Below are positions 27,038 to 30,182 of a DNA stretch of 64,000 nt, piece by piece. Made by a program: the position numbers and the translations under genes. A model generated the notes under the pieces. That model had not been told where the DNA came from. It searched no databases and was given only the letters and a program-made list of their open reading frames with translations. This DNA comes from an uncultured Alphaproteobacteria bacterium (GTDB taxonomy: Bacteria; Pseudomonadota; Alphaproteobacteria; HIMB59; GCA-002718135): positions 26,349 to 90,348 of the forward strand of contig CACMQB010000001.1 in NCBI GenBank assembly GCA_902615745.1. Direction: 5' to 3'. The first letter of the stretch is position 1, and each line of letters opens with the position of its first letter.

Positions 27038-27759
27038 GATTTAATTCTTAATGATGATCTTCCTCCATCTATATGAAATATTTGTCCAGTAATCCAACTA
27101 TTTTTATCACTTAATAGAAAACTTCCAATATCAGAGAAATCATCACCAGATCCAATTTTAGGTAAAGGATGCATATTTTCAATTGCTTTCTTAATAGTTT
27201 CATTATTAAGTAACTTTTGTGTCATTTTTGCGTCAGTTAAACTTGGTGCAATACAATTAACTTTAATTTTTGGAGCAAATTCTGCTGCTAAGCTTAAAGT
27301 AAGCCCTTCAATGGCACCTTTTGCGGTAGAGACTATTGTGTGATTAGTAAAGCCCTGTTTAACAGCTATAGTTGAATAAAGTAGAATACTACCATTATTT
27401 TTAGCTAAAGTTTCTTGATTAAACTTAATTGCATTTACAGCACTAAGTGTATTTATTTTAAAAGACTCAATAAAATCCTCATCTTTAGTCATTTTGAGAG
27501 GTTTTAAATTTATAGAACCAACACAAAAAGCAATACCACATAATCGATCTTTATATTCTTCTGAAATATTTTTAACTTTATCAAAATCTAAAACATCACA
27601 AACTTTATATTCGCAACCAATTTCCTCAGATAATTGTTTTAATTCTGTCTCATTTCTAGAAATAATTATTGGATCAAAATTATTGCTTTTCAATTTTTTT
27701 GATAATGATTTTCCAATAGAACCAGTTCCCCCAAAGACAAATATATTTTTGTTAGACAT
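27034..27759 (-). CDS. Short-chain dehydrogenase/reductase (SDR, FabG-like)
   Basis: 241 aa. Motifs GGTGSIGKSL and STAKGAIEGL (a variant of the YxxxK region). The C-terminal ITGQIFHIDGG is typical of classical SDRs. Confidence 0.85.
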   Translation of the reverse strand: MSNKNIFVFGGTGSIGKSLSKKLKSNNFDPIIISRNETELKQLSEEIGCEYKVCDVLDFDKVKNISEEYKDRLCGIAFCVGSINLKPLKMTKDEDFIESFKINTLSAVNAIKFNQETLAKNNGSILLYSTIAVKQGFTNHTIVSTAKGAIEGLTLSLAAEFAPKIKVNCIAPSLTDAKMTQKLLNNETIKKAIENMHPLPKIGSGDDFSDIGSFLLSDKNSWITGQIFHIDGGRSSLRIKS

Positions 27760-28807
27760 TTTTAACCTTTCTAATTTTAATTTGATGATAACTAATTAAT
27801 AAAGTTGATAATAACAAAATTGAATTAGTTTGATGTAAACTTGCGACTGGTAGGTAAACATTACTTAAAAGAGTAATAATACCTAACATTACTTGTAATG
27901 TCAGAAAGAATAGGATTAAATACACAAGAATACTTGAAACGTTTTTATTATCAAATTTAATAAATCTGAAACACACAAATAGGATATAAAAAAAAACAAA
28001 AATTGATAACCAGCGGTGGTTAAAATTTATTGCAACTGTATTTTCAAAAATATTATAAATACCTAAATCATCAATAATGTAATCATCAGGTATAATTTTT
28101 CCATTCATTAGTGGAAAAGTATTAAAAGATTGTCCAGAGTTGGTTCCTGCCATAAATCCACCTGTTGCAATTGTGATAAATATTAAGATTACAGCTATTA
28201 AAATATAAAATTCAACTGTCTTTGGAGTAGATATAAAATTTATATTAGAAGAATACCTATAATCCATTGCTATCCATAATAGTATTGAGAAAATTATGAG
28301 AGCATTTAAAAGATGAAAAGTAAGTCTATAAGGGCTTACATAAGGATTTTCAGTCAATCCACTTTTTACCATCCACCATCCAATAACTGCTTGAAACAAA
28401 CCAAACACAAAAACAATTCCAAGTCTTATATATAGTGACGATTGAATTTGCTTTTTAAAACTGAAGTAAATTAAAGGTATTAAAAAGACAATTCCTATGG
28501 CTCTTGCAAAAATTCTATGAAACCACTCCCACCAAAAAATATATTTAAATTCATTTAACGTCATATTTTTGTTAACTATTTTGTATTCTGGTGTTTGTTT
28601 ATACATTTCAAATACAGCCAACCAACTTTCTAAACTCAGTGGAGGAATTACACCTAAAATTGGACGCCAGTCGGTCATAGAAAGTCCAGAGTCGGTTAAT
28701 CTTGTTAAGCCTCCTATTACTATAATTAATAAAACCATTGCGGTTATTGTTAATAGCCATATATAAATCGCAGGATTATAATATTTTGAAGTATTAGCGT
28801 AATTCAT
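27752..28807 (-). CDS. ctaA: Heme A synthase (CtaA/COX15 family)
   Basis: 351 aa with about 8 TM helices. Has conserved His-containing helices (EWFHR, FNHRW, SLHQ) and the [10 protein letters not shown] region typical of COX15/CtaA. Confidence 0.85.
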
Positions 28808-28860
28808 TCAAAGTATATATAATCCCTAGAAATAATAAAAAAAGTTGTTATTTTTCAGAT

Positions 28861-29871
28861 ATGACAGAAAAAACTGATGTAGTAATTATAGGTGCAGGTC
28901 CGGTAGGTTTATTTGCAGTATTTGAACTAGGTCTTTTAAATATAAAATGTCATTTAGTTGATAATTTAGATAAAGTTGGAGGTCAGTGTGCTGAATTGTA
29001 CCCAGAAAAACCAATTTATGATATTCCCTCAAGACCAGTTGTAACAGGGCAAGAATTAACTGACGAGTTAATTAAACAGATAAACCCATTTAAACCTAAA
29101 TTTCATCTCAACCAACAAGTTGAGAAAATTGCTAAAACAGAATATGGTTGGATTGTAGAAACTAATATTGGAACAAAAGTTGAAGCAAAATGTATAGTAG
29201 TGGCAGCAGGCGCAGGAAGTTTTGTGCCCCGAAAACCTCCGATTGAGAATATTGAGAGTTTCGAAAACAAGAGTGTTTTTTATGCAATTCGAGACAAATC
29301 AATATTTAAGGAAAAAAAACTCCTAATTGCAGGAGGAGGAGATTCCGCTTTGGATTGGACAAATGAACTATCTAAGGGTTCCAAAGTAACTTTAATACAT
29401 AGAAGAAAAGAGTTTAGGGCAGCACCTGATTCTGTTTCAAAAATGCAAGAATTAGAAACAAAAGGAAAAATTAAATTTTTAAAGGGTCAAATAAAAAAAA
29501 TTTCAAAGGTTCAAGATAGTAAAATTATGCTTGAATACGAAAACGATAATGAAAGATCAAAAATTGAAGTAGATTACTTTTTGCCCTTTTTTGGCTTAAA
29601 AATGGAACTAGGTCCAATTGCGGAATGGGGTTTAAACTTACACGAGAACTTAATTAAAGTGGATACTGAAAAATTTGAAACTTCTACACCGTCAATTTTT
29701 GCGATAGGTGACATAAATTGGTATCCAGGAAAACTTAAACTTATTCTATCAGGATTTCACGAGTCTGCCTTAATGGCTCAAGAAGTATTTAAGTACTGCT
29801 TTCCTGATAAGAAAAATATTTTTAGATACACAACATCTTCCAAAGAACTTCAGAAAAAACTAGGCGTTTAA
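28861..29871 (+). CDS. Ferredoxin-NADP(+) reductase, thioredoxin-reductase-like type
   Basis: 336 aa. FAD site [13 protein letters not shown], second dinucleotide site [12 protein letters not shown], and GGQC.ELYPEK.IYD, as in YumC-type FNRs. Confidence 0.88.
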
Positions 29872-30182
29872 TGCCAAAGTTAATAATCACAGATAGATCA
29901 GGTAAAAAGTCTGAAATTGAATATGATAGTAATTTTACATTAATGGAAACACTTAGAGACAATGGCTACGAAATTGAAGCTTCATGTGGAGGATGTTGTG
30001 CTTGTGCTACCTGTCATGTTTATATTGATGAAAAATGGAAAAATAAACTAAAAAATATGGATGATGATGAAGAATCTATGCTGGATCAAGCTTTTGATGT
30101 TAAAAATAATTCAAGATTATCCTGTCAAATTGATCTATCTGAAGAATTTGATGGATTAGAGATAGAAATAGCACCAGAATAG
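29871..30182 (+). CDS. [2Fe-2S] ferredoxin, adrenodoxin/putidaredoxin (vertebrate) type
   Basis: 103 aa. Cys ligand pattern C-x5-C-x2-C (SCGGCCACATCH) plus a distal Cys (RLSCQI). The start overlaps the FNR stop by 1 nt. Confidence 0.9.
   Translation: MPKLIITDRSGKKSEIEYDSNFTLMETLRDNGYEIEASCGGCCACATCHVYIDEKWKNKLKNMDDDEESMLDQAFDVKNNSRLSCQIDLSEEFDGLEIEIAPE

What the first reader, a model, noticed from the sequence alone, without database searches (positions are those of the whole stretch)
27752..30182. Heme A synthase divergently paired with a ferredoxin-NADP reductase and an adrenodoxin-type [2Fe-2S] ferredoxin
Seen in sequence:
- ctaA (COX15 family) starts at 28807 on the minus strand.
- 53 bp away on the plus strand a TrxR-like ferredoxin-NADP reductase starts at 28861.
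- The reductase stop overlaps by 1 nt the start of a vertebrate-type 2Fe-2S ferredoxin with C-x5-C-x2-C...C ligands.

Established knowledge: in yeast mitochondria, Cox15-dependent conversion of heme O to heme A genetically requires the ferredoxin Yah1 and its reductase Arh1. To my knowledge the physiological electron donor of bacterial CtaA has not been pinned down.

Inference: this alphaproteobacterial locus may encode CtaA together with a dedicated NADPH-to-ferredoxin electron supply. That would be a bacterial counterpart of the mitochondrial arrangement, using a different reductase family.

Caveat: in a genome this compact, adjacency alone is weak evidence. This ferredoxin type also serves Fe-S assembly and P450s.
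Basis: partly seen in the sequence, partly recalled or inferred. Interest (0 to 1): 0.55.

Follow-up and report, generated by a model that had tools for sequence, protein, structure and literature searches.

The report
Ferredoxin reductase-ferredoxin pair beside ctaA
A marine alphaproteobacterium keeps a widespread, general-purpose NADPH-to-ferredoxin gene pair back to back with its heme A synthase gene. The pair is a testable candidate for that enzyme's unknown bacterial electron donor, but comparison with relatives shows a loosely held, lineage-specific gene order rather than a dedicated supply line.

Summary
An intact type-2 ctaA (27752-28807, minus) lies 53 bp from a TrxR-type ferredoxin-NADP reductase (28861-29871). 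The reductase stop overlaps by 1 nt the start of an adrenodoxin-type 2Fe-2S ferredoxin (29871-30182).

- FNR+Fdx is a two-gene module found adjacent in about 40 of 59 alphaproteobacterial genomes that hold this FNR subtype. It is orthologous to R. palustris RPA3954/RPA3956.
- The module is almost never near ctaA: 2 of 185 ctaA loci outside this order.
- It sits beside sulfite reductase/cysH in 5 loci.
- It occurs in 5 near-complete genomes with no CtaA at all.
- Within the window's own order the flanks (ctaA, marR-lysS-pyrD) are stable, but FNR and Fdx are the variable part. FNR is elsewhere in one family, the pair has moved away in one genus, and Fdx is deleted in one species.
- In one species Fdx is replaced in place by a flavodoxin. 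Flavodoxin was found only in the three genomes where no Fdx was found.

This genome has no ISC, P450 or flavodoxin, and this is its only small 2Fe-2S ferredoxin. CtaA therefore remains a plausible client, but not a dedicated one.

The scan has reported the same arrangement before on other DNA.

The parts
27752..28807 (-). ctaA, type-2 (Cox15-like) heme A synthase, 351 aa. It heads a minus-strand gene string.
   Evidence: PF02628 E 8e-104. E94, H97, H165, H264 and H325 are invariant in a 103-sequence alignment. There is a single Cys (C279), so no loop Cys pairs.
28808..28860 (.). 53-bp A+T-rich divergent intergenic region between ctaA and the reductase
   Evidence: Sequence read. The promoter scan found no more sites than shuffles give. 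Only the stretch just before the FNR start is conserved within the genus.
28861..29871 (+). TrxR-type ferredoxin-NADP+ reductase, 336 aa, subtype A (RPA3954 orthologue)
   Evidence: Pyr_redox_2 E 9.5e-27. No CxxC. 5YGQ E 6e-126. Full-length orthologues at 53-64% identity across the class.
29871..30182 (+). Adrenodoxin/putidaredoxin-type [2Fe-2S] ferredoxin, 103 aa. Its start overlaps the FNR stop by 1 nt.
   Evidence: Cx5Cx2C...C. Fer2 E 5e-11. TIGR02007 fdx_isc scores 66.6 bits, below the 132.1 cut-off. It is the only small Fer2 protein in the genome.
27034..27759 (-). Context: SDR overlapping the ctaA stop by 8 nt. It is part of the ctaA-SDR-DUF6134-SDR string.
   Evidence: ORF coordinates. 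adh_short_C2 E 2.6e-40. The gene is missing in several genera of the family.
30231..30692 (+). Context: MarR-family regulator directly after the ferredoxin, followed by class I lysS and pyrD
   Evidence: MarR E 1.8e-8. The marR-lysS-pyrD flank is stable across the family, while FNR and Fdx vary.

Best explanation
The FNR and ferredoxin genes form a general-purpose electron-supply module: NADPH -> FAD (TrxR-type FNR) -> [2Fe-2S] ferredoxin -> several acceptor enzymes. The module is the local copy of a two-gene unit that is widespread in Alphaproteobacteria, and R. palustris RPA3954/RPA3956 is the studied example. Its head-to-head position with ctaA is a gene order inherited within one marine order. 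That order is loosely held and does not mark a dedicated supply line.

In this streamlined genome the ferredoxin is the only small 2Fe-2S carrier. No ISC machinery, P450 or flavodoxin was found, and no sulfite reductase/cysH lies beside the module here as it does in five other lineages. The likely acceptors are therefore housekeeping enzymes. By analogy with mitochondrial Yah1/FDX1 these may include heme A synthase and lipoyl synthase.

Shown here: gene identities, the class-wide FNR-Fdx pairing, the distribution of the ctaA linkage, and the Fdx/flavodoxin swap. Inferred: that FNR reduces this Fdx, and every acceptor. My odds that CtaA is one of the acceptors are about 35%.
For: FNR and Fdx are a unit.
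- Their genes are translationally coupled here.
- They lie within 1 kb of each other in about 40 of 59 class-level genomes that hold subtype-A FNR (coordinates). Fdx was present in 40 of 43 fetched module loci.

The module is not tied to ctaA.
- Of 112 ctaA neighbourhoods (+-7 kb) from other alphaproteobacterial families, two have FNR-Fdx next to ctaA (G194, G311). One more has only an Fdx 1.1 kb away.
- G269 has the pair 4.3 kb away, behind a sulfite reductase-cysH operon.
- Of 73 further named ctaA loci outside the order, only one has an Fdx within 2 kb.
- A 2026 synteny study of heme A synthases lists ribosomal, argC and GNAT neighbours for type 2 and no ferredoxin (PMC12808453).

The module has other associations.
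- It lies near sulfite reductase and PAPS reductase in 5 loci. A methyltransferase (8 loci), a VWA protein (8) and chorismate mutase (5) also recur. CtaA appears in only 4.
- Five genomes 95-100% complete have subtype-A FNR but no COX15 family match.

Within the order, FNR/Fdx is the variable element of a stable block.
- Family f2 has ctaA<->Fdx-lysS, with FNR hundreds of kb away.
- Genus g252 has ctaA<->marR-lysS, with FNR-Fdx together elsewhere.
- G366 has ctaA<->FNR-marR with Fdx deleted.
- G367 has a 145-aa flavodoxin (PF00258 E 3e-33) in the Fdx position.
- Flavodoxin was found in exactly 3 of 80 order genomes (G366, G367, G015). These are the genomes in which neither the protein nor the profile search finds the Fdx.

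Possible clients.
- LipA is present in the genome.
- A separate 7Fe FdxA-type ferredoxin also exists.
Against: - The ctaA-Fdx adjacency survives across two families whose CtaA proteins are only 42-48% identical, even where FNR has left.
- The full three-gene layout recurs with different flanks in G194 and G311. Their FNRs fall in a different clade of the FNR tree from the window's, so the layout arose at least twice or is old. Immediate adjacency arising twice is somewhat more than I would expect by chance: a rough estimate gives about 0.2-0.3 events expected across about 175 families.
- The classical alternative clients (ISC, P450, sulfite reduction) were not found here, which leaves CtaA as one of few known ferredoxin-requiring candidates.
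- R. palustris FNR was reported to react only poorly with its neighbouring 2Fe-2S ferredoxin (PMC9137726, citing Seo 2009). Even the FNR->Fdx step is therefore not secure.
Confidence: 0.55

Rival explanations
1. The coupling is functional but not exclusive. The ferredoxin (or flavodoxin where swapped) is the physiological reductant of type-2 heme A synthase in these bacteria, alongside other clients. The 53-bp divergent promoter region co-regulates the supply with ctaA.
For: - Mitochondrial Cox15 needs ferredoxin and ferredoxin reductase (Barros 2001/2002, cited in PMC13213658). Human FDX1 loss depletes complex IV and lipoylation (PMC10470009).
- Cox15 and this CtaA share the type-2 architecture.
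- Adjacency holds over the order and recurs in G194/G311.
- In G367 the replacement flavodoxin sits at the same locus next to FNR and ctaA.
- Every CtaA-bearing genome I probed by profile has an adrenodoxin-type Fdx.
Against: - There is no linkage in more than 95% of ctaA loci outside the order.
- In genus g252 the pair moved away from ctaA as a unit, and in G366 the Fdx was deleted at the locus.
- The conserved His and Glu of CtaA lie at the periplasm-proximal ends of their helices. A cytoplasmic carrier would have to transfer electrons over a long distance. This is my inference from topology.
- No regulatory motif shared across lineages was seen in the intergenic region.
Confidence: 0.3
2. 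The supply is dedicated. FNR and Fdx exist in this genome chiefly to feed CtaA.
For: - Tight packing: a 53-bp divergent gap and a 1-nt overlap.
- No ISC, P450 or flavodoxin in the genome.
- The Fdx is not an ISC-type equivalog.
Against: - It is the sole small 2Fe-2S ferredoxin of the genome.
- The orthologous module is present in genomes without CtaA and next to sulfite reductase in others.
- The local arrangement is the least conserved part of its synteny block.
- The Fdx homologue FdVI is essential in R. capsulatus under non-diazotrophic growth (PMC10936413). From my own knowledge, that organism lacks an aa3 oxidase.
Confidence: 0.1
3. The two proteins are not a working pair. FNR mainly reduces the 7Fe FdxA-type ferredoxin or other acceptors, and the 2Fe-2S Fdx has a separate role, for example in SUF-based Fe-S assembly.
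For: - RpFNR shows low reactivity with RPA3956 (PMC9137726).
- A 7Fe ferredoxin is encoded elsewhere in the genome.
- FNR and Fdx are unlinked in family f2.
- G366 keeps FNR without Fdx at the locus.
Against: - FNR and Fdx are adjacent in about 40 of 59 genomes across many families, and translationally coupled here.
- They moved together in genus g252.
- Fdx is replaced by another FNR-type substrate, flavodoxin, directly downstream of FNR.
Confidence: 0.05

Closest known systems
Rhodopseudomonas palustris TrxR-type FNR RPA3954 (PDB 5YGQ) with the neighbouring 2Fe-2S ferredoxin RPA3956
   Same: The FNR is a full-length homologue, E 6e-126. It has the same TrxR fold without the CxxC. The same kind of ferredoxin is encoded next to it, and this pairing recurs across the class.
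   Different: In R. palustris the physiological role is unknown, and reactivity between the two proteins was reported as low (PMC9137726). Here the pair lies head to head with ctaA, in a 1.5-Mb genome where it is the only 2Fe-2S carrier.
Mitochondrial Arh1/FDXR - Yah1/FDX1 - Cox15 chain for heme A synthesis
   Same: It has a type-2 (Cox15-like) heme A synthase, an adrenodoxin-type 2Fe-2S ferredoxin (Yah1 2MJD, E 1.7e-19) and an NADPH-dependent flavoprotein reductase.
   Different: The reductase belongs to the TrxR-like family, not the adrenodoxin-reductase family. Dependence of heme A on the ferredoxin is genetic fact in yeast and human cells and is untested here. Yah1/FDX also serve Fe-S assembly, CoQ and lipoylation, so even the precedent is not a dedicated chain.
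E. coli Fpr-FldA/Fdx and B. subtilis YumC-ferredoxin/flavodoxin housekeeping systems
   Same: An NADPH-dependent reductase feeds a small carrier that serves many enzymes, and ferredoxin and flavodoxin are interchangeable. That matches the Fdx/flavodoxin swap seen in G366, G367 and G015.
   Different: Fpr is a plant-type FNR. The carrier here is an adrenodoxin-type 2Fe-2S protein, not a plant-type or 4Fe-4S one.
Rhodobacter capsulatus FdVI (fdxE, PDB 1E9M)
   Same: It is an alphaproteobacterial putidaredoxin-like 2Fe-2S ferredoxin, E 1.1e-21. It is essential for growth with no defined client (PMC10936413).
   Different: I did not establish orthology, and I did not examine the gene context of fdxE.

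Membership tests
COX15/CtaA heme A synthase, type 2 | Full-length match to the COX15-CtaA family | tested here: met
   PF02628 E 8e-104, profile positions 2-321 of 322. It scores below the NCBIfam alphaproteobacterial equivalog cut-off (262 vs 550 bits), which fits a divergent lineage.
COX15/CtaA heme A synthase, type 2 | Four heme-ligand histidines plus the catalytic glutamate of TM2 | tested here: met
   E94, H97, H165, H264 and H325 are invariant in 103 sequences.
COX15/CtaA heme A synthase, type 2 | No cysteine pairs in the external loops (this distinguishes type 2 from type 1) | tested here: met
   The only Cys is C279, inside a TM segment.
COX15/CtaA heme A synthase, type 2 | Converts heme O to heme A | not testable with these tools
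   Needs HPLC of hemes after expression with ctaB.
TrxR-type ferredoxin-NADP+ reductase | Two-Rossmann-domain TrxR fold lacking the redox-active CxxC | tested here: met
   Pyr_redox_2/3. GGGDSALD stands in place of the CxxC, and no CxxC occurs anywhere in the protein.
TrxR-type ferredoxin-NADP+ reductase | Close homology to a biochemically characterised member over the whole length, including the C-terminal extension | tested here: met
   5YGQ E 6e-126, query 2-336 against chain 4-341. Also 2ZBW, 3AB1 and 3LZW.
TrxR-type ferredoxin-NADP+ reductase | NADPH-dependent reduction of the neighbouring ferredoxin | not testable with these tools
   The only published test of an orthologous pair reported low reactivity (PMC9137726).
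Adrenodoxin/putidaredoxin-type [2Fe-2S] ferredoxin | Cx5Cx2C...C ligand pattern in a roughly 100-aa Fer2 fold | tested here: met
   C39, C45, C48 and C85 are invariant in 50 sequences. Fer2 E 5e-11. Best PDB hits are 3HUI, 3LXF, 1E9M, 2MJD and putidaredoxin.
ISC-system ferredoxin (fdx of the isc operon) | Reaches the equivalog cut-off and lies with iscSUA-hscBA | tested here: not met
   TIGR02007 scores 66.6 bits against a cut-off of 132.1. No IscU family match in this genome or in G025, G216, G194 and G311. SUF is present.
Dedicated Arh1-Yah1-Cox15-like heme A electron chain | Reductase of the adrenodoxin-reductase family | tested here: not met
   The reductase is TrxR-type.
Dedicated Arh1-Yah1-Cox15-like heme A electron chain | Gene linkage of ctaA with FNR/Fdx conserved beyond close relatives | tested here: inconclusive
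   Linkage is conserved across most of one order and in two other families. It is absent from 181 of 185 ctaA loci outside the order and broken several times inside the order.
Dedicated Arh1-Yah1-Cox15-like heme A electron chain | Heme A synthesis depends on the ferredoxin | not testable with these tools
   No experiment was possible. Genomes G366 and G367 keep ctaA, and no Fdx was found in them.

The most novel reading that the evidence does not exclude
NADPH -> TrxR-type FNR -> adrenodoxin-type ferredoxin (or flavodoxin, where iron-sparing replacement has occurred) is the physiological reductant chain of type-2 heme A synthase in alphaproteobacteria. It would then be the bacterial forerunner of the mitochondrial FDXR-FDX1/Yah1-Cox15 chain, built with a different reductase family. 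The head-to-head gene order in this order and in G194/G311 would be a remnant of that coupling.
Probability: 0.3. Interest if true: 0.6.

Novelty: new member of a known kind. Interest (0 to 1): 0.35.

Why it matters
The reductant of bacterial heme A synthase has not been identified. The papers I could read state a ferredoxin/ferredoxin-reductase requirement only for the eukaryotic enzyme (PMC13213658).

This locus offers a small, clonable candidate set: one FNR, one Fdx, and a natural flavodoxin substitute from a sister species. It comes from an organism that lacks the usual competing ferredoxin clients. That makes a clean reconstitution test possible.

The comparative result also sets a limit on inference. 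The FNR-Fdx pair is a class-wide housekeeping module of still unknown purpose, and its neighbours differ from lineage to lineage. Adjacency to ctaA should therefore not be used to annotate it as a heme A factor.

The complementary Fdx/flavodoxin distribution within one genus looks like iron-sparing carrier replacement acting on an adrenodoxin-type ferredoxin.

Tried and rejected
- Complex prediction of CtaA plus Fdx, with heme and 2Fe-2S riding along and alignments A2/A3, returned no verdict (score 0.00). It says nothing either way.
- The promoter/terminator scan of 28500-30400 found no more sites than shuffles give.
- I looked for a third gene conserved beside the FNR-Fdx module that might reveal its client. 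The apparent top cluster (23 loci) and several others were antisense shadow ORFs of FNR. No real neighbour exceeded 9 of 43 loci.
- Genes lying between FNR and Fdx in six lineages are unrelated to each other. The 265-aa ORF in G311 has no Pfam or NCBIfam match.
- I suspected that some CtaA-bearing genomes lack any adrenodoxin-type Fdx. A profile search found one in all five tested, so I dropped that argument.
- Armengaud 1997 on FdVI (PMC179111) is not held.
- The flavodoxin neighbourhoods in G366 (a small Rieske protein, ThuA) and G015 (a fatty acid desaturase) gave no clear client.
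Full report
OBSERVATION

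The ORF list, family scans and translations confirm three intact genes.
- ctaA runs 27752-28807 on the minus strand. It matches COX15-CtaA at E 8e-104 over the whole profile.
- In a 103-sequence alignment the catalytic Glu and four His (E94, H97, H165, H264, H325) are invariant.
- ctaA has a single Cys, inside a membrane segment. It is therefore a type-2, Cox15-like heme A synthase.
- Fifty-three bp away a 336-aa flavoprotein starts at 28861. It has TrxR-like Rossmann domains but no CxxC. Its best solved relative is the R. palustris TrxR-type FNR 5YGQ, E 6e-126 over the full length.
- The FNR stop overlaps by 1 nt, in TAATG, the start of a 103-aa ferredoxin with C39-x5-C45-x2-C48...C85.
- The ferredoxin's closest solved relatives are alphaproteobacterial putidaredoxin-type ferredoxins and yeast Yah1. 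It does not reach the ISC-ferredoxin equivalog cut-off (66.6 vs 132.1 bits).

GENOME CONTEXT

The window lies in a 1.48-Mb assembly of 34 contigs, 88.5% complete.
- The other Fer2 matches are domains of NuoG, a formate-dehydrogenase-like protein and a xanthine-dehydrogenase-like protein.
- A motif search of all ORFs finds no second small Cx5Cx2C ferredoxin. This is the genome's only small 2Fe-2S carrier.
- IscU, P450 and flavodoxin families were not found. SufB/D are present.
- The same holds for a 96%-complete congener, the 99%-complete single-contig f2 genome, and G194 and G311.
- A 7Fe FdxA-type ferredoxin and LipA are encoded elsewhere.
- Record titles of relatives point to the HIMB59/AEGEAN-169-like lineage rather than Pelagibacterales proper: SAG AG-916-I08, MarineAlpha5_Bin7 and HIMB59-SPSalt, plus a 1,410,127-bp single-contig f2 genome. 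This naming rests on titles only.

FNR-FDX IS A CLASS-WIDE MODULE

I searched 300 alphaproteobacterial genomes that are at least 90% complete, from about 175 families.
- Two TrxR-type FNR subtypes appear. Subtype A is 53-64% identical and aligns to the last residue. Subtype B is 46-52% identical and aligns only to residue about 326.
- I compared coordinates by hand. About 40 of 59 subtype-A FNR genes have the best Fdx homologue within 1 kb on the same strand, on either side.
- In 43 fetched module loci, Fdx was present in 40.
- The window's FNR-Fdx is therefore the local copy of a conserved two-gene unit. In R. palustris this unit is RPA3954/RPA3956, where the two proteins were reported to react only poorly and no physiological role is known (PMC9137726).

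THE MODULE IS RARELY NEAR ctaA

I fetched +-7 kb around ctaA in 112 class-level genomes outside the window's order.
- Only G194 and G311 show ctaA<->FNR(-x)-Fdx. G179 has an Fdx 1.1 kb away without FNR.
- By coordinates, G269 has the pair 4.3 kb from ctaA. There the pair lies downstream of a sulfite reductase-cysH operon, and it is that operon which faces ctaA.
- Among 80 named ctaA loci from a genome-collection scan, linkage appears only in the window's own family, in HIMB59-like records (Fdx only), and in one Porticoccaceae locus with an Fdx about 1.8 kb away.
- G194 and G311 share no flanking genes with the window. They do share groES/groEL-like neighbours with each other, so they probably count as one event.
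- In an FNR tree their FNRs fall in a different clade from the window's. The layout therefore arose at least twice, or is old and mostly lost.
- A 2026 synteny study of heme A synthases reports ribosomal, argC and GNAT neighbours for type 2 and does not mention a ferredoxin (PMC12808453).

OTHER ASSOCIATIONS OF THE MODULE

- After I removed antisense shadow ORFs, no third gene accompanied the module in more than 9 of 43 loci.
- The recurring neighbours are an SDR (9 loci), a methyltransferase (8), a VWA protein (8), sulfite reductase with PAPS reductase (5), chorismate mutase (5) and CtaA (4).
- Five genomes 95-100% complete, from five families, carry subtype-A FNR but have no COX15 family match at all. 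Three of them have the Fdx adjacent to FNR.
- The module therefore has work to do that is unrelated to heme A.

INSIDE THE ORDER

The order holds two families in this collection: f1 with 9 genera and f2 with one. I surveyed 80 genomes at least 80% complete and fetched the informative loci.
- A block pfk-SDR-DUF6134-(SDR)-ctaA | marR-lysS-pyrD-orf278 is conserved throughout f1 and largely in f2.
- What varies is the FNR/Fdx insert:
  - Most f1 genera have ctaA<->FNR-Fdx-marR.
  - f2 has ctaA<->Fdx-lysS, with FNR hundreds of kb away.
  - Genus g252 has ctaA<->marR-lysS, with FNR-Fdx together at another site (L252-L255).
  - G366 has ctaA<->FNR-marR with only 101 bp where Fdx should be.
  - G367 has a 145-aa flavodoxin (PF00258 E 3e-33) in the Fdx position, on the FNR strand.
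- A search with that flavodoxin finds it in exactly three of the 80 genomes: G367, G366 (at another site) and G015.
- These three are g1 genomes in which neither the Fdx protein nor an Fdx profile finds a ferredoxin.
- The assemblies are 82-88% complete, so absence is 'not found'. The complementary pattern is nonetheless clear.
- It reads as a ferredoxin-to-flavodoxin carrier replacement. That implies the clients accept either carrier, as in general FNR/flavodoxin housekeeping systems.

WHAT THIS MEANS FOR THE HYPOTHESIS

- The mitochondrial precedent is sound. Cox15 needs ferredoxin and its reductase (PMC13213658). Human FDX1 loss depletes complex IV and lipoylation (PMC10470009).
- Cox15 and Yah1 descend from alphaproteobacterial genes of the same types found here. 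The prior that an adrenodoxin-type ferredoxin feeds type-2 CtaA is therefore not small.
- The gene order adds only modest support. It is held in one order as part of general synteny. It is the least stable part of that synteny and recurs once or twice elsewhere.
- 'Dedicated' is contradicted in three ways: the Fdx is the sole 2Fe-2S carrier, the module exists without CtaA, and it is linked to sulfite reduction elsewhere.
- A topology sketch places all heme ligands at the periplasm-proximal helix ends. Direct transfer from a cytoplasmic carrier would be long-range. This is my inference, and the same puzzle exists for mitochondria.
- The Fdx homologue FdVI is essential in R. capsulatus (PMC10936413). 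From my own knowledge that organism lacks an aa3 oxidase, which again points to other clients. I did not show orthology.

LIMITS

- Complex prediction gave no verdict.
- Counts of FNR-Fdx adjacency come from hand comparison of the 150 best rows of each search, so they are approximate.
- One unpublished genome (G071) was part of the class-level tallies, but no specific claim rests on it.
- The scan has reported the same arrangement three times before on other DNA, with verdicts close to mine.

VERDICT

The locus holds ordinary members of known families in a lineage-specific gene order. It gives a reasonable, cheap-to-test candidate for the bacterial heme A synthase reductant, but it is not evidence for a dedicated system.

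Noticed in passing
L250:5360-5797 (-), G367, same genus; also L262:1498-1935 (G366) and L261:1498-1935 (G015): A 145-aa flavodoxin occupies the ferredoxin's place downstream of FNR in one congener. Flavodoxin was found in exactly the three order genomes (of 80) where no 2Fe-2S ferredoxin was found. This looks like an iron-sparing carrier replacement acting on an adrenodoxin-type ferredoxin.
   Followed up: partly
L134, L140, L145, L159, L165 (class-level loci around FNR-Fdx): In five alphaproteobacterial loci the FNR-Fdx module lies within a few kb of a ferredoxin-type sulfite reductase (NIR_SIR) and a PAPS reductase. This suggests assimilatory sulfite reduction is a client of the module there.
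   Followed up: partly
class-level search with the window FNR: Alphaproteobacteria carry two TrxR-type FNR subtypes. One aligns over the full length (53-64% identity) and is usually paired with the 2Fe-2S ferredoxin. The other aligns only to residue about 326 (46-52% identity). Many genomes have both, but this genome has only the first.
   Followed up: no
L095:9085-9882 (+), G311: A 265-aa hydrophobic-looking ORF with no Pfam or NCBIfam match sits between FNR and Fdx. It resembles an earlier scan note (e1-3005350) of an unknown membrane protein between the same two genes in another genome.
   Followed up: partly
window 30183-30230: The 48-bp gap between the ferredoxin and marR holds a TTGACA and the palindrome TTTGTATACAAA, with a repeated TTTGTATA. 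This is probably the MarR operator. marR overlaps class I lysS.
   Followed up: no
L108, L109, L113, L114, L115 (family f2, ctaA-Fdx intergenic region): A short motif, TAGTCGCA or TAGGTCGCA, is conserved in the 110-150-bp gap between ctaA and the ferredoxin in family f2. It is absent from the window's family.
   Followed up: no
window 25595-28807 and L252, L256-L258: The ctaA-SDR-DUF6134-SDR string is conserved in the genus, but the SDR that overlaps ctaA is missing in several other genera of the family, while DUF6134 stays.
   Followed up: partly
own genome, contig C3:96416-96748 (outside the window): A 110-aa FdxA-type 7Fe ferredoxin (CxxCxxxxCxxxCP plus CxxCxxCxxxCP) is a second possible substrate of the FNR.
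   Followed up: no
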